Source: a virus. From it: a stretch of 31,363 nt of DNA. The first letter of the stretch is position 1; the number at the start of each line of letters is the position of its first letter. Below the pieces are notes generated by a model that saw nothing but the letters and a program-made list of their open reading frames with translations, had not been told where the DNA came from and ran no database searches. Below are positions 17,507 through 31,363 of this stretch, one piece after another. The stretch is from positions 1 through 31,363 of the IMG/VR virus record IMGVR_UViG_3300045988_116134; one strand, written 5' to 3'. Position numbers and translations under genes: made by a program.

Positions 17507-19201
17507 CTAAATTAGGGTCATATATTCATCACGATTATTACACAGAACGGTATAGGCATCTAGCAATGCTGCTGTACCATCAATTCTTCTTGTAGCCTTA
17601 CTAGTTTTAGCCGGCTGAATATTGCCGTTAATATCTTCATCAATAGCGGTGTTAGATAAACACCACTTGTCTATTGGATTATTATTGTAAACAATCAATT
17701 TCTTTTGCAAATCGGCTTTTAGGTTTTTCATAGGGTTTGACAAAGTTTTCTTGCCTTGAATAACCGGCACCATAACATTGCCGAAGGTGTTTTCCATTTC
17801 GTCAACCCAATAGACGGCAGACCAAGAATCATAACCGACTTTGTAGATATATATATCAAGTTCGTTTTGAACTTCCGCAAACCATTTTGTTACACACTTT
17901 GCATTAATTTTATTGCCGGGCGATAATCTCATATAGCCTTTATCTACCCAAATATCATAAGGAATTCTATCTTCCTTTACTTTCTTGTCAAGCAAATCAG
18001 CAGGGATCCAGTACATAGACAAGCAATAAATATGTTCATCGCCTGGAACACAGAAAAGCACTTTGGCTGCTGTAAGGTCGGTAGTACTTGATAAGTCAGC
18101 ACCGCCAATGCCGTACCTTGGCTTTAGTTCTTTAACATCGAATGTTTTCTCATTGTTGAGTTCCTCGAAGGTCAACCAACTTTGTACAGAAGTTTCAGGA
18201 ATGTTGAATTCCTTGCACAAAAGGTTTTTAACAAGTTCGGTCTTGTTCTTTGCTTTATCAACTTTATCTCTTAATGTAGATAATTTTTTGATGGTGCCAA
18301 GTCCAGGATTTGCCTTCTTCCAGCAATTTGGGTTGGTCCATTCCTCGCGTTTGTCTAGTTCGTAGATAACATAAAGGCTGTGTTCGTCTTTAAAACCATT
18401 ATCATCAAACAAACCATTAATAGCATTTTTGGCATCGTCATATATATCATCATATATGTCATTTCTGATGGTTCCGGCGGTAGTAGTAATTAAAACAAGA
18501 GGTTGTTCTCGTCCGGCAGTACCATCTGACATAATGTCGAATAAGGCTCTGCCATTCTTCCACTGGTGAAGTTCGTCCATCAGGCAACAATGCACATTTA
18601 AGCCATCTAAGGTATCACTATCGGATGCCAACGGCTTAAATATTCCACAGTTGTATTCTTCTGAGGAAAGTTCATTATGCAAAGTCTTGATTTTCTCAAG
18701 TAGAAATTCAGACTTGCGGACCATTCGTTTTGCTTCTTGCCAAATTATTTTTGCTTGGTCCTTCTTCGTCGCTACTGCGTACACTTCCGGACCCAGTTCG
18801 CCATCTGCGATTAACATATACAAGCCGACTATTGAGGCTAGTAGAGATTTACCATTTTTCTTAGCGACGATTAAAACAGATAGATTATATTTTCTAAGTC
18901 CGTCAATTCCAACAAAGCCAAATGTAGCAGCTAACCATGCCTTTTCCCATAACTCAAGTTTGACAAGTTGACCACCAAATTTACCCTTAGAATTTCTACA
19001 AAAATTTTCAGCAAATTCTAAAATATGATTGGCTTTTTTGTTGCTATAAAAATACTCGCCAGGGTGTTCAACATCCCAAGCGAGTTTCTTATATACTGTT
19101 CTGACTTTCTCTGATACGACTTCTTCTCCGCTCTCAATTTTGGCCCAGTATTCTAAAATTGGGTTATAATTTAGAGGGTATTTTTTAAATTTTTGACTCA
19201 T
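17507..19201 (-). CDS. terL: Terminase large subunit (Terminase_1 family)
   Basis: VAKKNGKS Walker A-like motif, LMDELH, a C-terminal nuclease region, and the expected position. Confidence 0.92.
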   Translation of the reverse strand: MSQKFKKYPLNYNPILEYWAKIESGEEVVSEKVRTVYKKLAWDVEHPGEYFYSNKKANHILEFAENFCRNSKGKFGGQLVKLELWEKAWLAATFGFVGIDGLRKYNLSVLIVAKKNGKSLLASIVGLYMLIADGELGPEVYAVATKKDQAKIIWQEAKRMVRKSEFLLEKIKTLHNELSSEEYNCGIFKPLASDSDTLDGLNVHCCLMDELHQWKNGRALFDIMSDGTAGREQPLVLITTTAGTIRNDIYDDIYDDAKNAINGLFDDNGFKDEHSLYVIYELDKREEWTNPNCWKKANPGLGTIKKLSTLRDKVDKAKNKTELVKNLLCKEFNIPETSVQSWLTFEELNNEKTFDVKELKPRYGIGGADLSSTTDLTAAKVLFCVPGDEHIYCLSMYWIPADLLDKKVKEDRIPYDIWVDKGYMRLSPGNKINAKCVTKWFAEVQNELDIYIYKVGYDSWSAVYWVDEMENTFGNVMVPVIQGKKTLSNPMKNLKADLQKKLIVYNNNPIDKWCLSNTAIDEDINGNIQPAKTSKATRRIDGTAALLDAYTVLCNNRDEYMTLI

Positions 19202-21247: not shown

Positions 21248-21475
21248 TTACCAATTTTCTACTATGCTGTAAATTCCACAACAGTTAAAAGTTTTGCAGT
21301 ACCACTCACAACTTTCCTTGATACATTCTTTCTTCAAGATCGGACAAATTTTCCCTTGCTTTTTTACTAATGTGTGTTTTACTTCTGTCTCTTCGTTTTC
21401 AAGAGCACAAATATTCAATTTACATTCAGTGCCGGACCTTGACACACACTTTAAATTTGGAAATTTACATTTCAT
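21248..21475 (-). CDS. Cysteine-rich small protein (75 aa, 11 Cys)
   Basis: ATGA overlap with the Rep stop. I recognise no family. Confidence 0.5.
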   Translation of the reverse strand: MKCKFPNLKCVSRSGTECKLNICALENEETEVKHTLVKKQGKICPILKKECIKESCEWYCKTFNCCGIYSIVENW

Positions 21476-22215
21476 TGTTTTAGCCTTCCTTTTTCGTAAA
21501 ATATTGATGAATTAAAAAAAGTAAATGAATAACTACAAGCCCAACTATCGTCTAACGGACAGTAATCAGATACAAGCGTATAGCCTTTTTGAGGTACATC
21601 AACAATTTCGCCTTTTTCGAGCTTTGCAAATCGCCTTTTCCCACATTTTACAACCTTGATTTCCGGCTTGGTGAGATTTCTGCTTGTCATTAATCGCTTA
21701 GAACCTTGTATATCTTTGCGTATGTATTCAGCCAGCTTGAAAAATTGACCATCTTCGTAAAGTGGTTGAAGATTAATGCCATTTTTCCATTTCCACTGTT
21801 CACGAGCGATTTTGACTATCTCAGCAGATAAGATAATGTGCAAGTGCCAGTTTTTCCCACGCACGCCACACTCAATAAAGCCTATGTACTTGACCTCTAA
21901 GCCGTTTTTCTTTGCGTGGTACTTAGTGCGGTTTATAAACTTGTTGACTTCTTTCCTAAATTCACTTTCGGTGAAAGTTTCGGTTGGAGCGGACAAACGC
22001 ACAAAGTAATCACCAGCTGAGAAGTTGCAACAGATAAGTCTCTGAGTGTTCTTAATTGCTCTTATCTTATTTGCTTTCTGTTGCTGTTCTTTGGTTTTGC
22101 AAATATTCTTGCCTCTTGCAACATTCTTTTTGTTGCGAGGCTTCAAACTTTTAATGTATTCAATTTCAGCCAAGTATCCGCTTTTGACAGTTCTCTTATA
22201 GTAATACATTTCCAA
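21472..22215 (-). CDS. HUH-superfamily rolling-circle replication initiator
   Basis: YFVRLS (motif 1-like), WHLHIIL (HUH) and LAEYIRKD (YxxK catalytic Tyr) occur in the canonical order. Confidence 0.65.
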   Translation of the reverse strand: MEMYYYKRTVKSGYLAEIEYIKSLKPRNKKNVARGKNICKTKEQQQKANKIRAIKNTQRLICCNFSAGDYFVRLSAPTETFTESEFRKEVNKFINRTKYHAKKNGLEVKYIGFIECGVRGKNWHLHIILSAEIVKIAREQWKWKNGINLQPLYEDGQFFKLAEYIRKDIQGSKRLMTSRNLTKPEIKVVKCGKRRFAKLEKGEIVDVPQKGYTLVSDYCPLDDSWACSYSFTFFNSSIFYEKGRLKQ

Positions 22216-22223
22216 TTCCTTTT

Positions 22224-22241
22224 ACTTTTTTATTTTTGAGT
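22224..22241 (-). promoter_or_regulatory. 18-mer ACTCAAAAATAAAAAAGT (sense to the minus strand) upstream of Rep
   Basis: Identical to 25873..25890 and a 17/18 match to 29817..29834. A related variant occurs in both moron leaders. Confidence 0.5.
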
Positions 22242-22254
22242 TTTTATATATTTT

Positions 22255-22306
22255 CCTCGCTTAATTAATTACTTAAGCGGGAGGTACAAGGGCATTTCAG
22301 CCCTTG
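22255..22306. promoter_or_regulatory. Two adjacent hairpins upstream of Rep (candidate replication origin)
   Basis: CCTCGCTTAA/TTAAGCGGGAGG (with a 2-nt bulge) and CAAGGGC-atttca-GCCCTTG. Confidence 0.4.
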
Positions 22307-22323
22307 CGTTTTTTCTTAAAATC

Positions 22324-22527
22324 CTATTTGCTTTGTTTTGCTTCCGCTCCGCAGTTTGGACAATAATTGCCTGTTTTGTATCCGTTTCCTGTTCTAACTG
22401 CAAATACTTTGTATCCGCAGTTAGAACATTTAAAATAAATGCCAACTCTTGTTATTCTTTCACACTCAAGGTGATACCCAACTTTTTCCCAAGTTGCTAC
22501 TTTTTTCACTTCGTCAAGCCTCCGCAA
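22324..22527 (-). CDS. Zinc-ribbon protein, 67 aa
   Basis: CSNCGY...CPNCG. Confidence 0.55.
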   Translation of the reverse strand: MRRLDEVKKVATWEKVGYHLECERITRVGIYFKCSNCGYKVFAVRTGNGYKTGNYCPNCGAEAKQSK

Positions 22528-23485
22528 TTTTTTGAATTAAATCACTTTTTGCAAATAGCAAGTTCGCAATAGCGATAGCTAACTTCTTCCTTGTCTGTTC
22601 ATCAGCAACTAAAGCAATTAAACTCTCAATCTTTGCGATTGTTGTTTGTAGATTGTCAAACTGTATCTTTAAATTAATAAGATTTTCGTCAATTGTAGAA
22701 GTTGACTTCTTAGAAGATTGTTCAAGTTCAGCAATCTTGTTTTCGTATTCTTGCTGATTCTGCAACATTTCTTGCTTTAACTTTAGCGCCAGTTCTTTGT
22801 TCTGCTTTAGTTCCTTTGCAGTTGACTGCAAATCTTCTTCGTGCTTTTCACGCTCAGCAGTTAAAGCCTTGTCGATTTCTGCTGAGAGCTTCTCAGCTAC
22901 TGCATCATCAATCGCAGTAGCTGACTTTTCTCTCTGCTGTACTAATTCAGTTTCTAACTGCTTGTTCTTATTTTCTAAGTTCGCAACAAGTTCACTGTTC
23001 TTCTTGCTATCCACTTTAGCTTGTTTGAGCTCTTCTGCTTGTTGTTCAAAGTTGAAAGAGAGTTGCTCACCTCGTCCCTGGAGCCTCTTAACTTCTTCTT
23101 TAAGTTCTCTGACTGTCATATCCTCAGCAGATTCAGTAATTTCTTCTCTGTCAAGTGCCGAAACTTGACTTATTAATTCAAGCTTGGTGATGCCTAAACT
23201 TTCGTTAGCCTCAATAAACTTGTTACCAAGTTTTTCATATGTACTGATGTAGGCGTAAGCCTGACGGCTCTTAATTCCTGCTTTTTCTTCTGTATATTGT
23301 TCAAAAGTAGAACAACCCAGTGAAAGATAAAGTTTTTCATCTCTCATTGTCTTTAGATTTTGACAAACATTAACTAATGCAGTTGCTAGCATTCTCTGAT
23401 TAAGCATTATGCTTGCGTGCAAGGCATTTGCTCTTTCTTCCTTTGTTTCTGCCAATGTGGCAGTGGTGTTAATTAATTCATTCAT
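22514..23485 (-). CDS. Putative DNA-binding protein with a long coiled coil
   Basis: N-terminus MRDEKLYLSLGCSTFEQYTEEKAGIKSRQAYAYI is HTH-like. The C-terminal ~200 aa are E/K/Q-rich coiled coil. Confidence 0.5.
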   Translation of the reverse strand: MNELINTTATLAETKEERANALHASIMLNQRMLATALVNVCQNLKTMRDEKLYLSLGCSTFEQYTEEKAGIKSRQAYAYISTYEKLGNKFIEANESLGITKLELISQVSALDREEITESAEDMTVRELKEEVKRLQGRGEQLSFNFEQQAEELKQAKVDSKKNSELVANLENKNKQLETELVQQREKSATAIDDAVAEKLSAEIDKALTAEREKHEEDLQSTAKELKQNKELALKLKQEMLQNQQEYENKIAELEQSSKKSTSTIDENLINLKIQFDNLQTTIAKIESLIALVADEQTRKKLAIAIANLLFAKSDLIQKIAEA

Positions 23486-25170
23486 TAACTTGCTTTCCTT
23501 TCTTTTTTGAGATTTTTACTGTTGTGAATAAATTCTAAAAATTCATCCATAAATTTTTTGACTTCTGCCGGTGCTGAAGCATTGTTTTTTGCTCGGCACT
23601 GTATCAATTCATCGTTAAGTGAGATTTCAACGGTGCAGTAAGCCTTGTCCGGCTCTGCCACCTTTCTCACTACTAGTAAGATTGTTTTTCCTTTGAGGTA
23701 TTTTTCACAATAATTTGTGTAAACGCAATTATTTTGTTGTTGGGCTTCCTCATACACTTCATCAATTGAGACAAGCGGACGAATAATAAGTCCTTTACTG
23801 CTGTAAGTGTATTTCTTCTTGTACTTCTTAAGCAATTTGTTAAACTTGCTTAGTTTCTGTTCTAACTTTGCTTTTCTTTCTTCGTCCTCTTTTTGTTGAA
23901 GCATTTGGACTGCACTATCGTGAGCAGTTTTAAAATTTGAAGGAAATAGGGTGTTTTCGTTATCTTTGTCAATATTCAATCTATCTAGTAGTATTAGATA
24001 GTCGTTATAATCACGAAAAGTTTCTAAATTTTGTTGCTTGAAGTATTTAACAATCTTATGATAGCTACGATACTTATGTAGCAAGTCAAGTTGTTTTTGA
24101 TGATAGATAATATCTGTGCTTCTGAGGTAGTACGCGTCTGTTACAGATATTTTATTTCTGATAAAGAATAATTCTTCTATGATGGCACTTTGGGTTCTTG
24201 CAAGTGGGTTGGGAATTTTCTTTTTGATTTTTCTTAATTCTGCTTTGTTACATTTGAAAACTTCCGCTACTGTTGATTTTCTGAAATTGAAAATTCCGCC
24301 TTTGAATTTAGAACTATAATAGTGAGAATATCCATTCTTGAAGTTTACAAACTGTCTAACTACCATTTCGAAGCCTTCAAGCAATAATTTCTCCAGTACC
24401 GGATATTTGTTACTGTAATATAAAAACAAGACAAGCAACTTGTCTTCATCACAAACACCCGGCTCAAAATTTCTGTATTTGTCTAACTTTGAATATTTTA
24501 AACTAGTGTTTTTTAAGTTACTATCATTAAAATAGAAATAGTGAGTAGGCTTGTCTCTATAATGGCCAAAGAGGTCATAGCGGCTCATTTTTGGTTCTCT
24601 GATTTTGTCAACTTGATAAAAATAGTGCTTTGAATTGTTAACATTATCAAAACTACAGTACCGGCTATCAGGATATTCACCCCAATAAGGCTCATAACAG
24701 TAAGCACGCCCTAATATGAGGCTTTCACCATTTCTCAAGAAGACTCTCTTATCTTCTGAATAAGTAATTCTTGGTTCATTTGATGTAGGAATGTCATAAT
24801 CGATACATATATAAAAACTACGAATGAAAGCACCACCGGCTTTGCTCTGTAGAATTACTATGTATCCGTTCTGCTCAAGCGTTTTTCTGCCTCGCCAGGC
24901 ATCATATTTCTTGACTTGCTTGTAGCAAGAAGGGCACATTCTCACATCTCTGTGCTTCCGTTCTGCGACAAGTTCAATTTTGTGATTATATTCGTTGTCA
25001 ACAAGTCTTCCTGTCTGTTTTTTGTAATACTTTTTACAGGCGGTACAGTAAAAACCATTCTTGTCTGCGAAAGCATAGTTGTTACACAGCTCTTTCTTTA
25101 TATCTTCCTCAAAAGTTCGAGGTAATACAGGTGGGTTGTGCATTACCATCTCAATAGTTCTCTTGTTCAT
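23485..25170 (-). CDS. PcfJ-like domain protein with an N-terminal zinc-finger-like region
   Basis: The C-terminus QQNNCVYTNYCEKYLKGKTILLVVRK...AYCTVEI...IQCRAKNN fits my memory of the PcfJ domain. The N-terminus has CTACKK...CPSC. Confidence 0.5.
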   Translation of the reverse strand: MNKRTIEMVMHNPPVLPRTFEEDIKKELCNNYAFADKNGFYCTACKKYYKKQTGRLVDNEYNHKIELVAERKHRDVRMCPSCYKQVKKYDAWRGRKTLEQNGYIVILQSKAGGAFIRSFYICIDYDIPTSNEPRITYSEDKRVFLRNGESLILGRAYCYEPYWGEYPDSRYCSFDNVNNSKHYFYQVDKIREPKMSRYDLFGHYRDKPTHYFYFNDSNLKNTSLKYSKLDKYRNFEPGVCDEDKLLVLFLYYSNKYPVLEKLLLEGFEMVVRQFVNFKNGYSHYYSSKFKGGIFNFRKSTVAEVFKCNKAELRKIKKKIPNPLARTQSAIIEELFFIRNKISVTDAYYLRSTDIIYHQKQLDLLHKYRSYHKIVKYFKQQNLETFRDYNDYLILLDRLNIDKDNENTLFPSNFKTAHDSAVQMLQQKEDEERKAKLEQKLSKFNKLLKKYKKKYTYSSKGLIIRPLVSIDEVYEEAQQQNNCVYTNYCEKYLKGKTILLVVRKVAEPDKAYCTVEISLNDELIQCRAKNNASAPAEVKKFMDEFLEFIHNSKNLKKERKAS

Positions 25171-25191
25171 TTTCTTTAACCTCCGAAAAAA

Positions 25192-25563
25192 TTAAAGAAA
25201 ATCAAGAAGGTTAACTGGTCCTTGTTGGCCCGGCTCTTCTTTTGGTTCTTCAACCGGTACAGTAGCTTGAGTTTCTACTACTTCATCAGTAACAAATTCG
25301 TAGAATTTCTTGACCCAATTCCATACGGTTCTATCTTCAATCATCGCGTAGCCGTTTTTGGCTTGTTTCTTTGCTTTACTTCTGACACTGCTGATACAAT
25401 CAGATAGTGTCTTGTTCATTACCTTTTCAGCGTTTTCTGCACTGGTAATGTAGTTATCTATGATATAGCTAGCAATTCTTACTGCTGTATCGTCTTTCAT
25501 TCTGTCAGCTTCTGTATCAATCTTGTTGATAGCCTTCTGTATGATTTCATTTTCCGTGCTCAT
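25192..25563 (-). CDS. PcfK-like family protein (the family that includes the Cas9 inhibitor AcrIIA9)
   Basis: IASYIIDNY...KTLSDCISSVRSKAKKQAKNGYAMIEDRTVWNWVKKFY fits the family pattern as I recall it. It lies adjacent to a PcfJ-like gene, as in pCF10-type elements. Confidence 0.45.
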   Translation of the reverse strand: MSTENEIIQKAINKIDTEADRMKDDTAVRIASYIIDNYITSAENAEKVMNKTLSDCISSVRSKAKKQAKNGYAMIEDRTVWNWVKKFYEFVTDEVVETQATVPVEEPKEEPGQQGPVNLLDFL

Positions 25564-25923: not shown

Positions 25924-26235
25924 TTATTTTTTTGCAATCAACTGCAAAAACACACTATTCTTAATGTTAGTATCTTCTTGTAGTTTGATTCCAAAAATCT
26001 TCTCAAATGCTTCTTTGTTGCTCTTGACTTGCAATCTTGCTACGCAGTATCTGATAGCATTTCTCACTGCCTGCCAAGTTCTAACTTTGTATTTGCGCTG
26101 AATTTCCTTGTACAAACCTTCCATAGGCTTGTGCGGGTGTTCATGCAAGATGTTAACAGCTTCAAGTATGTATCCGTACCCCTTGAAATTCGGAGTTATT
26201 CCGATACTACACAATATCTTTTCTGTTTCATTCAT
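25924..26235 (-). CDS. Stand-alone Spo0A C-terminal (Spo0A_C) DNA-binding domain protein, 103 aa, no receiver domain
   Basis: Aligns by eye to B. subtilis Spo0A residues ~160-260: IGITPNFKGYGYILEAV vs IGVPAHIKGYLYLREAI; AVRNAIRYCV vs VERAIRHAIE; KIFG vs SLFG; NSVFLQLIAKK vs NSEFIAMVADKL. The ATG at 26235 follows a GGAGAA SD. Confidence 0.85.
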   Translation of the reverse strand: MNETEKILCSIGITPNFKGYGYILEAVNILHEHPHKPMEGLYKEIQRKYKVRTWQAVRNAIRYCVARLQVKSNKEAFEKIFGIKLQEDTNIKNSVFLQLIAKK

Positions 26236-26518
26236 TTTTCTGTTCTCCGTATATTTGTAATGCATTTTCATATGATTCTTCAATTATTTTGAGCATATCG
26301 CTTGCACTAAATTTTTGACAAAAAGTCAAAAATAACTGAGTCGTTAGTCCAACAAGTTCGTTCTTAGTTCCAAACATTGACGTAGCACAGAACATTTGCT
26401 CTGCGTTGTCGTCGAGAATTCCTGTAACTAGCACGAAAGAGTCATTCTTATTCCTTATTGACTTGTCGACTTCTTCGTGTATTACTTTGTGTTTTAATTC
26501 ATCCATTGTGTTTATCAT
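26228..26518 (-). CDS. Hypothetical protein, 96 aa
   Basis: The ORF's stop overlaps the next start by 8 nt. Confidence 0.5.
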   Translation of the reverse strand: MINTMDELKHKVIHEEVDKSIRNKNDSFVLVTGILDDNAEQMFCATSMFGTKNELVGLTTQLFLTFCQKFSASDMLKIIEESYENALQIYGEQKNE

Positions 26519-26874: not shown

Positions 26875-27229
26875 TTTCTTGTACCTCTGCCACTTCTAAG
26901 ATGTCCTTGAATTCAAGAGTTCCATCTTCAAGTTGCTTTTTATAATTGAGATTGACGATTTCATTCTCAAGCTCATCAATCTTAGTCTTGTAGGTATCTT
27001 CAACTATCTTAATATCGTTTTGGGCTGCATTAAGTTGCTTTGACAAGTTAATGTTTTCTTGGCAAAGTTTTAAATTTTCTTCAGCGAACTTTTGTTTGCC
27101 TTCTACAATATCAAGAAGATACTTATCATATATCTTCCTGATTTGGGCTTCCTTGTCCCACTGTGATGTTACTATCACTACAATGATTAACAGTATCATC
27201 ATTACTACTATTCCTAACGTGTTCAACAT
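26855..27229 (-). CDS. Single-pass membrane protein with a coiled-coil domain
   Basis: Starts MLNTLGIVVMMILLIIVVIV after an AAAGGAAG SD, followed by heptad-like E/K/L-rich sequence. Confidence 0.55.
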   Translation of the reverse strand: MLNTLGIVVMMILLIIVVIVTSQWDKEAQIRKIYDKYLLDIVEGKQKFAEENLKLCQENINLSKQLNAAQNDIKIVEDTYKTKIDELENEIVNLNYKKQLEDGTLEFKDILEVAEVQENEEAKD

Positions 27230-27334
27230 AATCTTCCTTTCTTTGCGAGTAGTAACTGCAAGCAATGCCTCTGTCTCGGCTCTGACAGTAGATGTGCCTA
27301 CACTTACTGCAATTACCAGTTCCTTTTATCTTCA

Positions 27335-27523
27335 TCATTTTATTTCGATTCTTTCCACGCTTGATAAAGATAAGATAATCGTTCCTCTAGTGCGAGATAT
27401 TACATAAGTTTTATCGTTTATGTATATTTTTTGAACATTATCGGTGTACTCTGTTGGTTTTTCGAAATATACAACAGCTATTTGTGTTGGCTGATCGTTT
27501 TCGACGCAATCTACTCTATTCAC
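27335..27523 (-). CDS. Hypothetical protein, 62 aa (GTG start)
   Basis: AAGGAGGAAG SD lies 8 nt upstream. GTGA overlap with the preceding small ORF. Confidence 0.5.
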   Translation of the reverse strand: MNRVDCVENDQPTQIAVVYFEKPTEYTDNVQKIYINDKTYVISRTRGTIILSLSSVERIEIK

Positions 27524-27669
27524 TTTTTCACTTCCTCCTTTCTTAACATTGCCTCTAACAAGACTTTTGCTAGGTTTTCAGTTTGCTTTTTATCAAGTTT
27601 CACTGCTGAAGGTTCTTGCACTGTTACAAACTGACCGTCAGCAGTTCTCTTTGCAATCAAAGGTTGCAT
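27520..27669 (-). CDS. Hypothetical 49-aa protein (below the ORF-track size cutoff)
   Basis: Hand translation gives MQPLIAKRTADGQFVTVQEPSAVKLDKKQTENLAKVLLEAMLRKEEVKK. There is a GGAGGTGAG SD, and the stop is coupled to the next start. Confidence 0.5.
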   Translation of the reverse strand: MQPLIAKRTADGQFVTVQEPSAVKLDKKQTENLAKVLLEAMLRKEEVKK

Positions 27670-27684
27670 TATCTCACCTCCTGA

Positions 27685-27834
27685 TTAAGAAGCCTTTGGT
27701 GGCTCTTGTTCTGTGCTTTCTGCCTTAGCTGATTCCAGTCCGGCAATAAAGCCAAGAATGTACTGAAGATTGTTTTCCGGAATTTGAACTAGTTTTTCAA
27801 CCATTTTTTCAGCATTTTCTTTTTTTGTAGTCAT
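27685..27834 (-). CDS. First early-operon protein, 49 aa (Cro position, no obvious HTH)
   Basis: The ATG at 27834 follows a GAAAGGAG SD. The longer ORF-track start would run through the operator palindrome. Confidence 0.5.
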   Translation of the reverse strand: MTTKKENAEKMVEKLVQIPENNLQYILGFIAGLESAKAESTEQEPPKAS

Positions 27835-27852
27835 AATAAATACTCCTTTCAC

Positions 27853-27871
27853 AAAGGATTTGTAATCCTTT
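27853..27871. promoter_or_regulatory. Palindrome AAAGGATT-TGT-AATCCTTT in the early leader (candidate operator)
   Basis: Perfect 8-bp arms, located between the leftward -10 element and the first SD. Confidence 0.5.
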
Positions 27872-27884
27872 CTCAACTGATTTT

Positions 27885-27913
27885 ATTATATATCATTGTA
27901 AATCATTTGTCAA
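27885..27913 (-). promoter_or_regulatory. Early lytic promoter (leftward), full consensus
   Basis: The minus strand reads TTGACA - 17 nt - TATAAT. Confidence 0.75.
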
Positions 27914-27946
27914 CGGATTTTTGCAAAAAAATTAAATAAAAATGCG

Positions 27947-27975
27947 TTGACAACTGATTTTATATATAGTATAAT
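27947..27975 (+). promoter_or_regulatory. Repressor promoter (rightward), full consensus
   Basis: TTGACA (27947-27952) - 17 nt - TATAAT (27970-27975), then an AAGGAGGTGAG SD and the ATG at 27997. Confidence 0.75.
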
Positions 27976-27996
27976 GATATTAAAGGAGGTGAGATA

Positions 27997-28362
27997 ATGA
28001 CTACTGCTGATAAAATTAGAAGAGTGCGAAAACATTTCAAACTTTCTCAAACAGAGTTCGGCGAGAAGCTCGGTGTATCTGTTAACTTTATTGGTAATCT
28101 TGAACAAGGCAGAACAGAATTAAAGCCTTTAACGGCTCAGCTAATAAGTAGAGTTTTCGACGTCAATCCTTTATGGCTGGAAACCGGTGAGGGCGAAATG
28201 CTTATTGAGACTGATAGAGTTATTACTGATGAACTGTCGAAAAAATACAAATTGACGAACTTACAAGAAAAAGTTTTACTTAAGTATCTAAATTTAGATA
28301 CTAAACAAAGAGAAATAGTTGCTCAAGCAGTAGAGTTGTTGGCCAACGATTCTAAAGACTAA
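27997..28362 (+). CDS. CI-like XRE-family repressor, 121 aa, no S24 peptidase domain
   Basis: KLSQTEFGEKLGVSVNFIGNLEQGR is an HTH. The gene is divergent from the early operon. Confidence 0.85.
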   Translation: MTTADKIRRVRKHFKLSQTEFGEKLGVSVNFIGNLEQGRTELKPLTAQLISRVFDVNPLWLETGEGEMLIETDRVITDELSKKYKLTNLQEKVLLKYLNLDTKQREIVAQAVELLANDSKD

Positions 28363-28370
28363 AAGAAAAA

Positions 28371-28408
28371 TGGGAAGGACAAATTTGTCCTTCCCATTTT
28401 GTTATTTT
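28371..28408. terminator. Bidirectional terminator after the repressor gene
   Basis: TGGGAAGGACAAA/TTTGTCCTTCCCA is a 13-bp palindromic stem. A T-rich run lies downstream and an A-rich run upstream. Confidence 0.8.
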
Positions 28409-28418
28409 TATAATGCTT

Positions 28419-28544
28419 TCATTCTCTGTAAATCATCACTATGTACTTGTATATGCGTTCGAGTTGAGAAACTTTCGCAACTTTTGCGACAATCTTAATA
28501 AGTTCAACGATGTTTTTAACGAGTTTTGTCTTTTTGCCAAGCAT
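28419..28544 (-). CDS. Unannotated 41-aa basic amphipathic peptide gene
   Basis: Hand translation gives MLGKKTKLVKNIVELIKIVAKVAKVSQLERIYKYIVMIYRE. A GGAGGT SD lies 7 nt upstream. The gene has its own promoter and ends at the bidirectional terminator. Confidence 0.5.
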   Translation of the reverse strand: MLGKKTKLVKNIVELIKIVAKVAKVSQLERIYKYIVMIYRE

Positions 28545-28603
28545 AATAAAAACCTCCGACATAGTTATTTTGTACGGCACAAATGATACTATATCTTGCT
28601 TAG

Positions 28604-28632
28604 ATTATACTTTTGTATTTTCCACAATTCAA
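28604..28632 (-). promoter_or_regulatory. Promoter for the 41-codon gene
   Basis: The minus strand reads TTGAAT - 17 nt - TATAAT. Confidence 0.55.
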
Positions 28633-28773
28633 CAAGTAAATTTTTCCATTTATTTTTAATTCTTTTTGTTTTATTTTGTTTCTTTTTATAGTATAATTAA
28701 ATTAGATATTATATATTAGTGCTTACATATATATAATAAAAAAACTTTTGCGAAATAAAAAGGAGCTTAAAAA

Positions 28774-29805
28774 ATGAAGAAAAAGAAATCAGCATTAAAC
28801 ATTGCAGGGATCATCTGTATATCAATCGGAATTATCGGGCTATTGGGACTATTTACTGAGAACGACAAGTTGAACTTGTTTCTTGGCTCAGCTTTTTTAA
28901 TTGTGCTTGGCTTTATTTTTATTGCAATTAACAAATTTACTCATAAAGACAGTAAAAATAACACATCTAATAACATCAATTTACAAAATCAACAACAAAT
29001 TAATAATAGCATTACTGCTGTACCGATTCAGGAAGAAAAGAAAGAAATCAAGAGCTTTACGCTTGATGAAGCTATTAATGTATATTGTTGTACTGAACAT
29101 AGTAGTTGTCCTGCTGTCTATGACTATAAGCAGTACTTTACTGATGCTTTTAACTGCATTGCGGATCATGTAGCAGAACATAAGACTATATTGAGTAATG
29201 ACAAAGTATTGAGAAAGAAAGAATTACACAATCCAATTGTGAATTATAAGAATATAACTAAAACTACTAACTGTAATAAGATTAAGAATTTTGTTGCAAT
29301 TGACTGCGAAACAACCGGACTCAAGGTTGGAGGCAATGACATCATCGAACTTGCAGCAGTTAAGTTTGTTGATTTTAAACCAACAGAAAAATATCATACA
29401 TATTTAAAGCCAAGAAATCCAATCCCAGCTGATGCAACTGCCATTAACCACATCACCGACGAGATGGTGGCTAATAGTCCGCTTTTTGCACAAGTATGTG
29501 CAGATTTTCAAAATTTTGTGCAAGATTTTGCAATAGTTGCTCACAACGCAGGTTTTGATATGAAGTTTCTTCACGTTAGTGGTCTTGATTTATCAAAACA
29601 CACTGACAAGGTTTATGATACTTATACATTAGCAAAAAACAAAATTAAAGGCTTAGATAGTTATAAGCTATCTAGCTTGTGTGAGGAGCAGAACATACAA
29701 TGTAGTAACTATCATACTGCACTTGCTGATGCACTAGCGTGTGGAATACTCTTTGTCGATATTATTAAGATTGTCAAAGAAGTTAAAAATGTAGAAGAAT
29801 TATAA
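28774..29805 (+). CDS. Membrane-anchored DEDDh (DnaQ-like) 3'-5' exonuclease, 343 aa
   Basis: Two N-terminal TM helices (IAGIICISIGIIGLLGLF, LGSAFLIVLGFIFIAI). ExoI is AIDCETTGL, ExoII is VAHNAGFDMKFL, and ExoIII is YHTALADA (H-x4-D). Confidence 0.8.
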   Translation: MKKKKSALNIAGIICISIGIIGLLGLFTENDKLNLFLGSAFLIVLGFIFIAINKFTHKDSKNNTSNNINLQNQQQINNSITAVPIQEEKKEIKSFTLDEAINVYCCTEHSSCPAVYDYKQYFTDAFNCIADHVAEHKTILSNDKVLRKKELHNPIVNYKNITKTTNCNKIKNFVAIDCETTGLKVGGNDIIELAAVKFVDFKPTEKYHTYLKPRNPIPADATAINHITDEMVANSPLFAQVCADFQNFVQDFAIVAHNAGFDMKFLHVSGLDLSKHTDKVYDTYTLAKNKIKGLDSYKLSSLCEEQNIQCSNYHTALADALACGILFVDIIKIVKEVKNVEEL

Positions 29806-29816
29806 ACGTTAAAAAT

Positions 29817-29834
29817 ACTCAAAAATAAAAAGGT
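29817..29834 (+). promoter_or_regulatory. 18-mer variant ACTCAAAAATAAAAAGGT upstream of the integrase
   Basis: 17/18 match to the minus-strand copies, in sense orientation relative to the downstream gene. Confidence 0.45.
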
Positions 29835-29843
29835 GAATTAAAA

Positions 29844-31363
29844 ATGAATGAAAAAATTAACGCGGTGATTTATGCTAGATTTTCTAGCCACAACCAACAA
29901 GAGCAGTCTGTTGACGGTCAAGTCCGTTACTGCACTCAGTATGCAGAAGCTCACAATATGCGAATAATCGGCACATATGTTGATAGAGCCATGTCCGGAA
30001 CTAATGATAACAGACCCGACTTTCAGCAAATGATTAAGGACAGTGAAAACAAGCAGTTTCAGGTGGTCCTCGTTTGGAAGTTTGACCGTTTCGCTCGCAA
30101 TAGATATGATAGTGCTTTTTATCGTAGAGCATTAAAAAATAACGGTGTTACTGTCACATCAGTGACGGAAAGCGTGGGTGAAGGCTCAGAGGCTATTATA
30201 CTTGAGGCTATCCTTGACGCCATGGCAGACGCTTACTCTAAGCAGTTAGCAGAAAATGTTAAGCGTGGAATGAGAGAATCAGCGTTAAAATGTCAGACCA
30301 TCGGCGGGTGTACTCCACTTGGCTATGATGTAGTTAATAAAATGTATGTAGTCAACAAAGAAGAAGCCGAAATCGTTAAGTACATTTACAGGGAGTACGC
30401 AGACGGCAAAGGCAAGAAAGAAATCATAACTGAGCTAAATAACAGAGGCTACAAGACTAAGAGAGGCAAGAAATTTACAATCACAAGCTTGTCGCAACTG
30501 TTAAAAAATAAAAGGTATATCGGTATCTATGTATATAAGGATATGGAAATCAAAGACGGTATTCCGACGATTATTGACGAAGAATTATTTTATAAAGTTC
30601 AAAAAGTGGCGCTAAGAAATAAGCGTGATGCCTCACGCAAGAAAGCAAAGGTTGAGTATCTGCTGAGCGGTAAACTGTTCTGCGGCCACTGTGGTGAAGC
30701 TATGTTGGGTGAATCTGCTGTAAATCATAGTGGATATAAGTACTACTACTATGTATGTGGCAGCAGAAAGAAAAAATTGAGAATTTGTGACAAAAAGAGA
30801 GAAAAGAAAGAAGGCATTGAAGAATACTGTGTTCGTCAGGCTCTCAGCTTTTTCTCTGACAGAAAGAATTTGCAGTTGATTGCAAGAAAGGTTGTAGATT
30901 TATACAACTCAGAAATTGACAACGGACAAGTTGAAGTTCTAGAGCAGAATAAGATTAAGCTAGAAAAACAACTTGATGAACTTACTAACGCTCTTGTTAA
31001 AACATCAAATGTTAGAGTTTTATCAAAACTAAATGAACAAATTAATACTATTGACGAGCAACTATCTACTATAGATATAGAAATAGCAAGAGAAAAATCT
31101 CTTGCTACGGCTAAAATGTCTGTAGATGATGTTGTTGGATTTGTAGAAAGTCTGATCCGAGGAGGTGACATTAAGGATAATAAATTTAAAAAACAAATTA
31201 TTAATGTATTAATTAATAGGATATATCTTTACGATGACAAGATTGTTATTTATTTTAATGGCTCTAACAGTGCGAATACTGTAGATTATGCGACTGTTTG
31301 TGAAGATTTAAAAAAATTTGAAGCAGAAGAAAAAGTTCGCATACGGAACGCTATGCCCTGCCA
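29844..31363 (+). CDS. Large serine recombinase (integrase), N-terminal 506 codons; continues at base 1
   Basis: Starts MNEKINAVIYARFSSHNQQEQSVDGQ (catalytic Ser region). Other features are VVLVWKFDRFARN, a recombinase domain, a CGHCG...C zinc-ribbon region and a coiled coil. The ORF has no stop before the window end, so it is missing from the ORF track. Confidence 0.92.
   Translation, partial: MNEKINAVIYARFSSHNQQEQSVDGQVRYCTQYAEAHNMRIIGTYVDRAMSGTNDNRPDFQQMIKDSENKQFQVVLVWKFDRFARNRYDSAFYRRALKNNGVTVTSVTESVGEGSEAIILEAILDAMADAYSKQLAENVKRGMRESALKCQTIGGCTPLGYDVVNKMYVVNKEEAEIVKYIYREYADGKGKKEIITELNNRGYKTKRGKKFTITSLSQLLKNKRYIGIYVYKDMEIKDGIPTIIDEELFYKVQKVALRNKRDASRKKAKVEYLLSGKLFCGHCGEAMLGESAVNHSGYKYYYYVCGSRKKKLRICDKKREKKEGIEEYCVRQALSFFSDRKNLQLIARKVVDLYNSEIDNGQVEVLEQNKIKLEKQLDELTNALVKTSNVRVLSKLNEQINTIDEQLSTIDIEIAREKSLATAKMSVDDVVGFVESLIRGGDIKDNKFKKQIINVLINRIYLYDDKIVIYFNGSNSANTVDYATVCEDLKKFEAEEKVRIRNAMPC
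31223..31363. repeat. Terminal overlap, second copy
   Basis: Identical to 1..141. Confidence 0.95.

What the first reader, a model, noticed from the sequence alone, without database searches (positions are those of the whole stretch)
28774..29805. Membrane-tethered DEDDh exonuclease at the repressor-integrase (superinfection-exclusion) position
The 343-aa protein has a K-rich N-terminus, two TM helices and a low-complexity N/Q linker. A Cys-rich ~80-aa middle region follows, then a complete DnaQ-like exonuclease with all DEDDh motifs (DCE, HNAGFD, H-x4-D). By the positive-inside rule the nuclease would face the cytoplasm, held at the membrane. The gene sits between the CI-like repressor and the integrase. 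In Firmicute temperate phages this slot typically holds lysogen-expressed membrane-associated Sie or Abi genes such as the lactococcal sie2009-type genes. A nuclease anchored where incoming phage DNA enters could degrade free 3' ends of superinfecting genomes. I do not know of a described defence system with this architecture.
Basis: partly seen in the sequence, partly recalled or inferred. Interest (0 to 1): 0.8.

Follow-up and report, generated by a model that had tools for sequence, protein, structure and literature searches.

The report
Membrane-tethered exonuclease in prophage lysogeny slot
A prophage of a gut Ruminococcus carries a DNA-end-chewing enzyme anchored to the inside of the cell membrane, in the slot where related phages keep genes that shut out rival phages. 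It is probably an untested barrier against incoming DNA.

Summary
ORF 28774..29805 (+) encodes a 343-aa protein with a K-rich N-terminus, two TM helices, a disordered N/Q linker and an orphan ~80-aa middle element. It ends in a complete DEDDh exonuclease whose catalytic residues D177, E179, D262, H314 and D319 are invariant in 52 relatives. It lies between an HTH repressor and a large serine integrase, antiparallel to all lytic genes.

New here: the middle element plus exonuclease defines a rare family, only 37 clusters among 1.84 billion representative proteins. Its anchors are swappable: one or two N-terminal TM helices in about 59%, a TM2 domain at either end, zinc ribbons, or short amphipathic-looking N-termini. 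Most members sit just upstream of a tyrosine or serine integrase.

In an unbiased sample of sister phages only 2 of 16 carry it. The same slot otherwise holds an Ltp superinfection-exclusion lipoprotein, small membrane proteins, toxin-antitoxin pairs and nuclease/OLD-like genes. So it is patchy lysogeny cargo, not a replication gene.

The best reading is a lysogen-expressed nuclease that attacks the 3' ends of entering DNA. It is analogous to SNIPE and TREX1 but a member of neither. No function has been tested. Membrane anchoring is not universal, and the cysteines are not a conserved cluster.

The parts
27885..27975 (.). Divergent pair of perfect sigma-70-type promoters: the genetic switch. 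The + promoter (27947-27975) drives the repressor. The - promoter (27913-27885) drives the early lytic genes.
   Evidence: both are TTGACA-17-TATAAT, 12/12 matches
27997..28362 (+). Short HTH_3 (Xre/Cro-CI type) repressor-like protein, 121 aa, with no peptidase domain
   Evidence: PF01381, E=2e-13; phrog_8/phrog_4, transcriptional regulator/repressor
28367..28400 (.). Bidirectional intrinsic terminator. It ends the repressor transcript, so the exonuclease gene needs its own promoter.
   Evidence: 15-bp stem with 6 GC pairs and T-runs on both strands
28419..28544 (-). Small antisense gene (41 aa, basic) between the repressor and the exonuclease. It has its own promoter (28632-28604) and a GGAGG RBS. 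Context only; function unknown.
   Evidence: a small gene is also called at this place in the 92% relative L002; no Pfam hit
28760..28765 (+). Ribosome-binding site AAGGAG, 8 nt before the ATG of the exonuclease gene
   Evidence: read from the sequence
28774..28944 (+). Residues 1-57: MKKKK N-terminus and a two-helix transmembrane hairpin (the membrane anchor)
   Evidence: dN/dS 0.10
28945..29043 (+). Residues 58-90: N/Q/K-rich disordered tether
   Evidence: pLDDT below 50 at residues 63-75; composition
29044..29289 (+). Residues 91-172: family-specific middle element. It is a helical hairpin (97-105, 118-132) plus a long extended strap. Conserved positions are Y104, T107, H109, F126, K144, R147 and P154.
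   Evidence: no Pfam hit; no PDB sequence hit; no PDB fold hit; found in only 37 clusters of 1.84e9
29290..29805 (+). Residues 173-343 plus the stop codon: DEDDh (DnaQ/RNase T-type) 3'-5' exonuclease domain. Catalytic residues are D177, E179, D262, H314 and D319.
29844..31361 (+). Large serine recombinase (integrase), 38 bp downstream with no terminator between. It is probably co-transcribed. It runs off the window.
   Evidence: Resolvase, Recombinase, Zn_ribbon_recom; phrog_95 integrase, E=4e-121; no terminator found

Best explanation
This is a prophage cargo gene expressed from the lysogeny strand, probably co-transcribed with the integrase. Its product is a catalytically competent DEDDh 3'->5' DNA exonuclease. 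A two-helix anchor and a flexible tether of about 35 residues hold it on the cytoplasmic face of the membrane.

Confinement at the membrane would keep it away from the nucleoid and replication forks. It would also place it where foreign linear DNA first appears. When a superinfecting phage injects its genome, the nuclease would attack the free 3' end of the entering DNA. That would destroy cos ends or terminal redundancy, block circularisation, and expose the rest to host nucleases. The resident prophage, integrated and end-less, would be spared.

The variable anchor or adaptor module may set where the enzyme goes. The conserved middle element, with K144 and R147 invariant or nearly so, probably packs on the exonuclease and shapes substrate access.

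Shown here: the architecture, the catalytic motifs, the predicted topology, the genomic position, the patchy distribution and purifying selection. Inferred: expression in lysogens, DNA as the substrate, action at the entry site, and protection.
For: **Catalytic domain.**
- A complete and invariant DEDDh active site.
- The fold is closest to DNA-acting exonucleases: the DinG N-terminal exonuclease, the Cas2-DnaQ DnaQ domain, Pol III epsilon and ExoX.

**Anchor and topology.**
- Two predicted TM helices with positive charges on both cytoplasmic sides.
- Across the family, K+R are enriched after the last TM: 3.6 against 2.0 per 15 aa.
- The anchor is swappable. N-terminal TM helices occur in 46 of 78 members. 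A TM2 domain is N-terminal in P0145 and C-terminal in P0025. This suggests that localisation itself is under selection.

**Genomic position.**
- The gene sits on the lysogeny strand, antiparallel to all lytic genes.
- No terminator separates it from the integrase.
- In relatives it lies in a repressor-exonuclease-integrase row with gaps of 4-46 bp or overlaps.

**Distribution and slot contents.**
- Only 2 of 16 PcfJ-lineage sister phages with a visible integrase carry it.
- The same slot otherwise holds an Ltp Sie lipoprotein, small TM proteins, lipoproteins, PemK, RelB/ParE, HSDR_N-type and Mrr nucleases, and an OLD/GajA-like ATPase.

**Selection.** Purifying selection acts on every part.

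**Precedents.**
- SNIPE, a membrane-bound nuclease that cuts DNA during injection and has equally variable N-termini (PMC13190303).
- Sie genes between integrase and repressor in lactococcal phages (PMC7693887).
- Ltp (PMC3952083).
- A DEDDh-like prophage gene with exclusion activity in Pseudomonas phage Fc02 (PMC9936078).
Against: - There are no experimental data of any kind.
- About 41% of family members lack a predicted TM helix. Membrane tethering is therefore not obligatory, unless their zinc-ribbon or amphipathic N-termini localise them in another way.
- No convincing promoter was found directly upstream of the gene. The best candidates score only 9/12.
- Tight coupling to the integrase could mean that it is expressed at establishment or excision rather than constitutively in lysogens.
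- An exonuclease needs a free 3' end, and many phages protect their genome ends.
- Not every gene in the integrase-repressor slot confers resistance. Dub35A orf3-5 gave none (PMC7693887).
- No known defence model matches the whole protein.
Confidence: 0.45

Rival explanations
1. Same enzyme and location, but the main target is incoming single-stranded DNA from natural transformation or conjugation. The prophage would protect itself from being recombined out, or would exclude rival mobile elements, by degrading ssDNA as it emerges at the membrane.
For: The architecture and topology are the same as for the main model. DEDDh enzymes of this type commonly prefer ssDNA 3' ends; the ExoX, RNase T and ExoI structures among the fold matches are DNA complexes. 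From my own knowledge, transforming ssDNA enters Firmicutes 3' end first, and prophages are known to block competence (paratox in streptococci).
Against: It is not known whether the Ruminococcus hosts are competent. The sister-phage slot cargo includes an anti-phage protein (Ltp) rather than anti-competence factors. Conjugative ssDNA enters 5' end first.
Confidence: 0.12
2. Abortive-infection effector. The nuclease is kept harmless by sequestration at the membrane. On infection it is released or activated, for example by cleavage of the disordered tether or by membrane perturbation. It then degrades DNA indiscriminately and kills the infected cell.
For: A long disordered tether lies between the anchor and the enzyme. 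The median tether in the family is 61 aa. Toxin-antitoxin and Abi-like cargo share the slot.
Against: No partner sensor or protease gene is conserved next to it. An exonuclease alone is a poor executioner of circular chromosomes. Members without an anchor would be constitutively free.
Confidence: 0.12
3. Not defence. It is a phage housekeeping or lysogeny function coupled to the integrase. It might trim DNA ends or 3' flaps during establishment or excision, limit unintegrated rolling-circle replication intermediates, or act as a proofreading subunit.
For: The gene is very tightly linked to the integrase, with start and stop codons often overlapping. The phage has a Rep_ORF2/G2P-type initiator. 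Databases name such proteins Pol III epsilon-like or 'DNA polymerase exonuclease subunit'.
Against: It is linked to both tyrosine and serine integrases, which share no mechanism and need no exonuclease. It is absent from 14 of 16 sister phages that integrate without it. It lies outside the replication module and on the opposite strand. A membrane anchor is hard to reconcile with proofreading. NCBIfam scores are far below the epsilon and PolC equivalog cutoffs. Some members are antiparallel morons inside tail operons.
Confidence: 0.13
4. It acts on RNA or short oligonucleotides, like RNase T, Orn or Cap18. For example it could degrade signalling nucleotides or nanoRNAs near the membrane, as a counter-defence or a regulatory function.
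For: RNase T and the CBASS-associated Cap18 exonuclease are among the structural matches. DEDD dinucleases are associated with genomic islands in Clostridia (PMC11706625).
Against: The best sequence and fold matches are DNA proofreading-type domains: PolC, epsilon and DinG. The diDNases are NrnC-like DEDDy enzymes, whereas this protein has the DEDDh histidine motif and falls below the PF01612 cutoff.
Confidence: 0.06

Closest known systems
SNIPE (membrane-bound GIY-YIG nuclease that cleaves phage DNA during injection; PMC13190303)
   Same: It is a single polypeptide. The order of parts matches: a membrane anchor near the N-terminus, then a middle domain, then a C-terminal nuclease facing the cytoplasm. 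The N-terminal regions are highly variable across homologues. SNIPE has 59% with one TM, 7% with two and 34% with none; this family has 36%, 23% and 41%. The logic is self/non-self discrimination by location.
   Different: The nuclease is a DEDDh exonuclease, not a GIY-YIG endonuclease. The middle element is an orphan 80-aa hairpin plus strap, not DUF4041; no Pfam hit. It is encoded in prophage lysogeny modules of Gram-positive gut Clostridia. No interaction with tape-measure or host proteins is known.
Prophage superinfection-exclusion genes of Firmicute phages (Sie2009 of Tuc2009, PMC7693887; Ltp of TP-J34, PMC3952083)
   Same: It occupies the same genomic slot, between repressor and integrase on the lysogeny strand, and is membrane-associated. 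An Ltp-family gene occupies exactly this slot in a sister phage (L213).
   Different: Sie2009 and Ltp are small non-enzymatic membrane proteins or lipoproteins that block injection. This protein carries an enzyme on the cytoplasmic side. There is no sequence relationship.
TREX1 (mammalian ER-membrane-tethered DEDDh 3'-5' DNA exonuclease; own knowledge)
   Same: Both combine a DEDDh exonuclease with a TM anchor and a flexible linker, and the enzyme faces the cytosol. TREX1 clears cytosolic and viral DNA. TREX1 and TREX2 are among the fold matches. One family member (P0025) has a C-terminal anchor like TREX1.
   Different: Similarity is limited to the shared superfamily fold (16-19% identity). 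TREX1 is eukaryotic and usually has a C-terminal anchor. This is convergent, not orthologous.
Proofreading-type DEDDh domains: PolC exonuclease, Pol III epsilon, DinG N-terminal exonuclease, ExoX, Cas2-DnaQ
   Same: These are the best sequence and structure matches for residues 173-343. The catalytic motifs are identical.
   Different: There is no polymerase, helicase or Cas2 partner domain, and no epsilon C-terminal segment. Scores are below every equivalog cutoff. The TM anchor and the middle element are not found in those families.
PADLOC candidate PDC-S48 and CRISPR-associated DEDDh
   Same: The exonuclease domain matches these profiles: DEDDh at 9e-37 and PDC-S48 at 3e-29.
   Different: Only positions 4-174 of the 411-position PDC-S48 profile align, and 15-180 of the 512-position one. 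PDC-S48 proteins have the exonuclease at the N-terminus with a long C-terminal domain. This protein is the reverse and lacks that domain.
Other prophage or defence exonucleases: P2 Old (own knowledge), Ppl (PHP 3'-5' exonuclease, PMC12904381), Fc02 Olg1/Sie1 (DEDDh-like, PMC9936078)
   Same: All are exonucleases used for exclusion or defence, encoded by prophages or as single genes. Fc02 Olg1 is reported to contain a DEDDh-like region and to exclude phages when expressed.
   Different: The nuclease folds differ (Old is ATPase plus Toprim; Ppl is PHP). None is reported to be membrane-tethered. No homology to Olg1 was tested here.

Membership tests
DEDDh (DnaQ/RNase T) exonuclease superfamily, PF00929 | Exo I motif D-x-E | tested here: met
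   D177-C-E179; both invariant in 52/52 sequences
DEDDh (DnaQ/RNase T) exonuclease superfamily, PF00929 | Exo II aspartate | tested here: met
   H257-N258-A-G-F-D262; N258 and D262 invariant
DEDDh (DnaQ/RNase T) exonuclease superfamily, PF00929 | Exo III motif H-x4-D (the 'h' subtype, not Y-x3-D) | tested here: met
   H314-TALA-D319; invariant
DEDDh (DnaQ/RNase T) exonuclease superfamily, PF00929 | Profile score above the curated cutoff, and the fold | tested here: met
   PF00929 109.5 bits against 24. TIGR00573 105 against 71.5. Foldseek TM about 0.85 to DnaQ and epsilon domains, rmsd 2.0-2.8 Å.
DEDDh (DnaQ/RNase T) exonuclease superfamily, PF00929 | 3'->5' exonuclease activity | not testable with these tools
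   Needs an enzyme assay
Pol III epsilon / PolC proofreading subunit | Equivalog-level similarity, with a polymerase-binding C-terminal segment or fusion to a polymerase | tested here: not met
   dnaQ_proteo 105 against 222.7; PRK06807 133 against 335; PolC 128 against 873. The protein ends right after the exonuclease domain. It lies outside the replication module.
SNIPE | N-terminal membrane anchor with cytoplasmic C-terminal domains | tested here: met
   By prediction only
SNIPE | DUF4041 middle domain | tested here: not met
   No Pfam hit for residues 91-176, even at E<=10
SNIPE | GIY-YIG nuclease domain | tested here: not met
   The nuclease is DEDDh
SNIPE | Cleaves phage DNA during injection; binds tape-measure protein | not testable with these tools
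   Needs labelled-DNA injection and proximity-labelling assays
Sie-type prophage exclusion genes (Sie2009, Ltp) | Located in the lysogeny module between repressor and integrase, on the same strand | tested here: met
   An Ltp gene is in the same slot of sister phage L213.
Sie-type prophage exclusion genes (Sie2009, Ltp) | Membrane-associated | tested here: met
   By prediction only
Sie-type prophage exclusion genes (Sie2009, Ltp) | Sequence homology to a known Sie family | tested here: not met
   No Sie or Ltp family among the Pfam or PHROG hits
Sie-type prophage exclusion genes (Sie2009, Ltp) | Expressed in lysogens and blocks superinfection | not testable with these tools
   Needs a transcriptome and plaque assays
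PADLOC PDC-S48 | Full-length match to the profile (N-terminal exonuclease plus C-terminal domain) | tested here: not met
   Only profile positions 4-174 of 411 and 15-180 of 512 align
diDNase / NrnC-like DEDDy dinucleases (PMC11706625) | DEDDy-type (PF01612-like) domain | tested here: not met
   H-x4-D motif. PF01612 scores 23.0, below the 23.6 cutoff, and covers only residues 249-305.
CRISPR-associated Cas2-DEDDh | Fusion to or adjacency with Cas2 or cas genes | tested here: not met
   No Cas2 domain. The neighbours are a repressor and an integrase.

The most novel reading that the evidence does not exclude
This is the founding member of an uncharacterised single-gene immunity family of gut Clostridia prophages. 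A DEDDh 3'->5' exonuclease is carried on interchangeable localisation modules: TM hairpin, a TM2 domain at either end, or a zinc ribbon. Tethered at the cytoplasmic face of the membrane, it destroys the leading ends of any linear DNA entering the cell, whether from phage injection, transformation or conjugation. It would be an exonucleolytic counterpart of SNIPE that has converged on the TREX1 design. Self is distinguished from non-self purely by location and by the presence of a free end.
Probability: 0.4. Interest if true: 0.75.

Novelty: new variant of a known kind. Interest (0 to 1): 0.6.

Why it matters
**Generalising a recent principle.** If the model is right, it extends the idea that location alone can discriminate self from non-self. 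It would carry that idea from one Gram-negative endonuclease (SNIPE) to an unrelated exonuclease in Gram-positive gut commensals. It would also show bacteria and mammals (TREX1) converging on a membrane-tethered DEDDh enzyme to clear foreign DNA.

**A compact test system.** It is one gene of 343 aa with obvious catalytic and anchor mutants. It could test whether attack on DNA ends at the entry site is enough for immunity, and whether the swappable N-terminal modules set specificity.

**Practical relevance.** The exact protein was seen on 33 contigs and its 90% cluster has 123 members. It could therefore shape phage susceptibility and gene flow in the gut microbiome. It could also hinder genetic manipulation or phage-based targeting of these bacteria.

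**Annotation.** Database names such as 'DNA polymerase III epsilon/alpha subunit' for these genes are misleading.

Tried and rejected
1. **Megablast of 27000-31363 against annotated phages: no match**. tblastn found only exonuclease-domain matches covering at most 56% of the query.
3. **Viral-contig searches for the middle element.** The middle-domain alignment was too variable for pattern search. A back-translated EKVLRxxEIxNPI pattern found nothing in viral contigs.
4. **Is the middle region a zinc or Cys cluster? Rejected.** Only C112 and C128 are moderately conserved.
5. **Does the middle region have a known fold? No.** There is no Pfam hit, no PDB sequence hit and no Foldseek hit. Modelled in isolation, its strap loses confidence.
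6. **In TM-less relatives, is the upstream gene a split-off membrane partner? Rejected.** The 163-aa upstream product has no predicted TM helix and looks soluble and coiled-coil-rich.
7. **Is it a core gene of this phage lineage? Rejected.** Only 2 of 16 sister phages have it. The closest PcfJ relatives (L190, L191, L193, L194) are cut before the slot and were uninformative.
8. **Literature.** I found no paper on a TM-anchored DEDDh defence or on PDC-S48.
9. **Membership of the diDNase (NrnC-like) family: rejected on motif type**.
Full report
**1.

ORF 28774..29805 (+) encodes 343 aa. It has an AAGGAG ribosome-binding site 8 nt upstream of the ATG.

The C-terminal half is a DEDDh exonuclease:
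- Pfam RNase_T scores E=3e-31 over residues 174-324.
- TIGR00573 scores 105 bits against a cutoff of 71.5.
- PADLOC DEDDh scores 9e-37.

D177, E179, N258, D262, H314 and D319 are invariant in an alignment of 52 relatives.

A Kyte-Doolittle scan finds two strong hydrophobic segments, at residues 10-28 and 34-52. An AlphaFold2 model built on the family alignment has mean pLDDT 90.8. It shows helices 7-25 and 33-60, a disordered stretch at 63-75, and a very confident region from residue 91 to the end.

The charge pattern is MKKKK before TM1, FTENDKL in the loop and NKFTHKDSKN after TM2. It fits N-in/C-in, which places the nuclease in the cytoplasm. Even if helix 1 were a cleaved signal peptide, the C-terminal part would still be inside.

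dN/dS against a 92%-identical relative is 0.085 overall. It is 0.10 for the anchor, 0.10 for the middle element and 0.07 for the exonuclease. Every part is maintained by selection.

**2. Surroundings in the window.**

The window is a siphovirus-type temperate phage. On the minus strand it carries an amidase endolysin, a BppU-like baseplate protein, a tape-measure protein, the capsid, TerL, a Rep_ORF2/G2P-type initiator and a PcfJ-like protein.

The lysogeny genes are on the plus strand at the right end:
- Two perfect divergent promoters lie at 27885-27975.
- A 121-aa HTH_3 repressor-like gene follows at 27997-28362.
- A strong bidirectional terminator lies at 28367-28400.
- A 41-aa antisense gene follows, with its own promoter and RBS.
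- Then comes the exonuclease gene.
- 38 bp later, with no terminator between, a large serine recombinase starts and runs off the window.

The exonuclease and integrase genes therefore look like one transcription unit, separate from the repressor. No strong promoter was found in front of it; the best candidates match 9 of 12 positions. This is a weakness for the claim of constitutive expression.

The exact protein is in NCBI as WP_329979430.1 / MEE0005947.1, named '3'-5' exonuclease [Ruminococcus sp.]'. It was seen on 33 contigs. Near relatives come from Oscillospiraceae and R. flavefaciens.

**3. What the protein is made of.**

The exonuclease domain is closest, in both sequence and fold, to DNA-acting proofreading-type domains. 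These are the PolC exonuclease, Pol III epsilon, the DinG N-terminal exonuclease, the DnaQ domain of S. thermophilus Cas2-DnaQ, and ExoX. RNase T, TREX1/2 and Cap18 are more distant. Scores are far below every NCBIfam equivalog cutoff. It is a free-standing member of the superfamily, not an epsilon or PolC orthologue.

The middle element (residues 91-172) is a helical hairpin followed by a long extended segment. The positions that are invariant in the middle-domain alignment and conserved across all 52 relatives are Y104, T107, H109, F126, K144, R147 and P154. It has no Pfam match even at E<=10, no PDB sequence match and no Foldseek match.

Modelled alone, the hairpin stays confident but the extended part drops to pLDDT of about 60. 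In the full protein that part is above 95. I infer that it straps onto the exonuclease domain. I could not inspect coordinates to check this.

The 'Cys-rich' label is true of this sequence, which has 5 Cys. But only C112 (38/52) and C128 (29/52) are conserved, so it is not a metal cluster as such.

**4. It defines a small, specific family with swappable anchors.**

An exhaustive profile search with the middle element ran against 1.84 billion representative proteins. It found only 37 clusters at E<=1e-3. All 32 complete ones have the middle element followed by the DEDDh domain.

The part in front of the middle element is highly variable:
- one or two TM helices;
- a Pfam TM2 domain, N-terminal in P0145 and C-terminal in P0025;
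- zinc ribbons, as in P0132 and P0144;
- short 'MGIFDIFKxKK'-type N-termini that look amphipathic (my reading, untested).

Among 78 non-redundant members, 46 (59%) have at least one predicted N-terminal TM helix. Positive charges are enriched after the last TM, at 3.6 against 2.0 per 15 aa. The tether to the middle element has a median length of 61 aa.

The anchor is exchanged, and even moved to the other end, while the core is kept. This argues that localisation is the selected property. It also shows that a membrane anchor is not obligatory.

**5. Genomic position across relatives.**

Six relatives were looked up by exact sequence. Five lie directly upstream of an integrase and co-oriented with it, downstream of an HTH-type regulator (repressor-type in P0001, P0028 and P0055), and antiparallel to the lytic genes.
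- P0001 lies next to a serine integrase.
- P0028 follows an ImmA-like gene and precedes a tyrosine integrase.
- P0013 and P0026 precede a tyrosine integrase with gaps of 4-9 bp.
- P0055 follows an S24 repressor by 16 bp and precedes a serine integrase by 45 bp.
- The sixth, P0053, is in a non-prophage chromosomal spot.

I then added IMG/VR contigs and scored ORFs with my own HMMs. This gave 38 non-identical family proteins with context, not all of them independent.
- 19 have an integrase within 200 bp downstream, several with overlapping stop and start codons.
- 11 more have one within 4 kb on the same strand.
- 8 have none, and some of those contigs are cut.
- 21 of the integrases are tyrosine type and 9 are serine type.

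A few zinc-ribbon-type members are morons in tail operons. One lies just upstream of the tape-measure gene (L099). One is antiparallel inside the tail genes (L127).

**6. Is it core or cargo?**

I sampled sister phages without reference to the exonuclease, using an alignment of the PcfJ-like early protein. Of 16 loci that include an integrase, only 2 carry the family (L192 and L217).

In the others, the repressor-integrase slot holds:
- an Ltp-family lipoprotein (PF07553, E=1e-38, L213), the prototype Sie protein of S. thermophilus phage TP-J34 (PMC3952083);
- another lipoprotein (L219);
- small proteins with 1-3 TM helices (L196, L205/L209, L215, L222);
- an HSDR_N nuclease-like protein (L218);
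- a PemK/MazF toxin (L224);
- a TPR protein (L199).

Loci found through the serine integrase show similar cargo. They carry RelB/ParE pairs, a 3-TM protein between an S24 repressor and the integrase, and an Mrr nuclease with an OLD/GajA/AriA-like ATPase.

The slot is therefore a hypervariable cargo site dominated by exclusion, toxin and defence-type genes, and the exonuclease is one alternative occupant. More distant DEDDh genes also sit at accessory positions in clostridial phages. In C. difficile phiCD481-1 one lies on the lysogeny strand. In C. tetani phiCT9441A one lies at the attR end.

**7. Most likely mechanism.**

*Shown:*
- an intact DEDDh active site;
- a predicted cytoplasm-facing enzyme on a membrane tether;
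- a lysogeny-strand position coupled to the integrase;
- patchy distribution in a defence-rich slot;
- purifying selection.

*Inferred:*
- the gene is expressed in lysogens;
- the substrate is DNA;
- the enzyme meets injected DNA at the membrane and degrades its free 3' end, preventing circularisation or exposing it to host nucleases;
- the integrated, end-less prophage and the chromosome are spared, because they have no free ends and lie away from the membrane.

I put this at about 0.45.

*Variants and rivals:*
- action on transforming or conjugative ssDNA (0.12);
- a sequestered abortive-infection effector (0.12);
- a non-defence role tied to integration or phage DNA metabolism (0.13), weakened by absence from 14 of 16 sister phages and by linkage to two unrelated integrase classes;
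- an RNA or oligonucleotide substrate (0.06).

**8. Comparison with what is known.**

*SNIPE.* The closest functional analogue is SNIPE (PMC13190303), which has a TM anchor, a DUF4041 domain and a GIY-YIG nuclease. It is shown to cut lambda DNA during injection, and its N-terminal regions are equally variable. This protein shares the layout and the logic but neither the middle domain nor the nuclease fold, so it is not a member.

*Other comparisons.*
- It shares position and membrane association with Sie2009 and Ltp-type genes (PMC7693887, PMC3952083), but it carries an enzyme.
- It converges on the design of mammalian TREX1 (own knowledge; fold matches).
- PADLOC's PDC-S48 and CRISPR-associated DEDDh profiles match only the exonuclease domain.
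- A February 2026 review lists Zorya, Kiwa and SNIPE as the membrane-localised DNA-targeting defences. It lists Ppl as a PHP-type 3'-5' exonuclease defence. It describes no DEDDh membrane enzyme (PMC12904381).
- A DEDDh-like prophage gene of Pseudomonas phage Fc02 (olg1/sie1) has reported exclusion activity (PMC9936078).
- The diDNases of clostridial islands are DEDDy NrnC-like enzymes, a different family (PMC11706625).
- My literature searches found no description of this family.

**9. Verdict.**

It is a new variant of a known kind: prophage exclusion cargo, or defence by a nuclease localised at the membrane. It is not a categorically new system, and its function is untested.

Interest is 0.6. 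After SNIPE the idea is no longer startling. But this is a different enzyme class, in a different host group, with clean and cheap decisive experiments.

Noticed in passing
window 28419-28632 (- strand): A well-formed tiny gene (41 aa, basic, MLGKKTKLVKNIVELIKIVAKVAKVSQLERIYKYIVMIYRE). It has its own promoter (TTGAAT-17-TATAAT, 28632-28604), a GGAGG RBS, and the shared bidirectional terminator at 28400-28367. It lies antisense between the repressor and the exonuclease gene. A small gene is also called at this spot in the 92% relative L002. No Pfam hit; function unknown.
   Followed up: partly
window 25924-26283 (- strand): An early-region phage gene encodes a Spo0A C-terminal DNA-binding domain (PF08769, E=5e-15) without the receiver domain. 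It may be a phage decoy or mimic of the sporulation master regulator in a Clostridia host. The homologous genes in L002 and L003 carry the same Pfam hit.
   Followed up: partly
window 15754-17493 (- strand): A 579-aa N6-adenine DNA methyltransferase (N6_Mtase, E=8e-64, with Eco57I-like similarity) sits between the terminase large subunit gene (17507-19201) and the ORFs that precede the capsid gene (12665-13858). No restriction partner is evident. It is probably an orphan, anti-restriction methylase.
   Followed up: no
window 21472-25563 (- strand): The replication and early module combines a Rep_ORF2/G2P-type (rolling-circle-like) initiator with PcfJ-like (561 aa) and weakly PcfK-like proteins. 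These families were named from conjugative plasmids. This PcfJ module is shared by many gut viral contigs with very different lysogeny cargo.
   Followed up: partly
L099 5608-6753 and L127 5623-6642 (IMG/VR contigs): Zinc-ribbon-type members of the same exonuclease family are not at the integrase but inside tail-gene clusters. One lies directly upstream of the tape-measure gene. One is antiparallel to the flanking tail genes (a moron). The proximity to the tape-measure gene may be chance, or it may hint at a functional link.
   Followed up: no
L185 790-4264 (IMG/VR contig): Upstream of a related serine integrase lie an Mrr_cat nuclease protein (527 aa) and an AAA_15 / OLD-GajA-AriA-like ATPase (597 aa). 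A RelB/ParE pair follows. This looks like a compact defence cassette in the same cargo slot.
   Followed up: partly
window protein residues C303, C310, C323 (nt ~29680-29742) with H109/C112: Several cysteines inside the exonuclease domain are highly conserved in the family: C303 in 51/52, C323 in 40/52 and C310 in 33/52. H109 (42/52) and C112 (38/52) of the middle element are also conserved. They might form an inter-domain metal site. This could not be checked without model coordinates.
   Followed up: no
L010 6001-7038 (metagenome contig, P0053): One family member lacks a predicted TM helix and has an unassigned ~90-aa N-terminal domain. It sits in a non-prophage chromosomal location, between an ABC transporter and a GDSL lipase gene and next to an HTH gene. 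The family is therefore not strictly prophage-bound.
   Followed up: no
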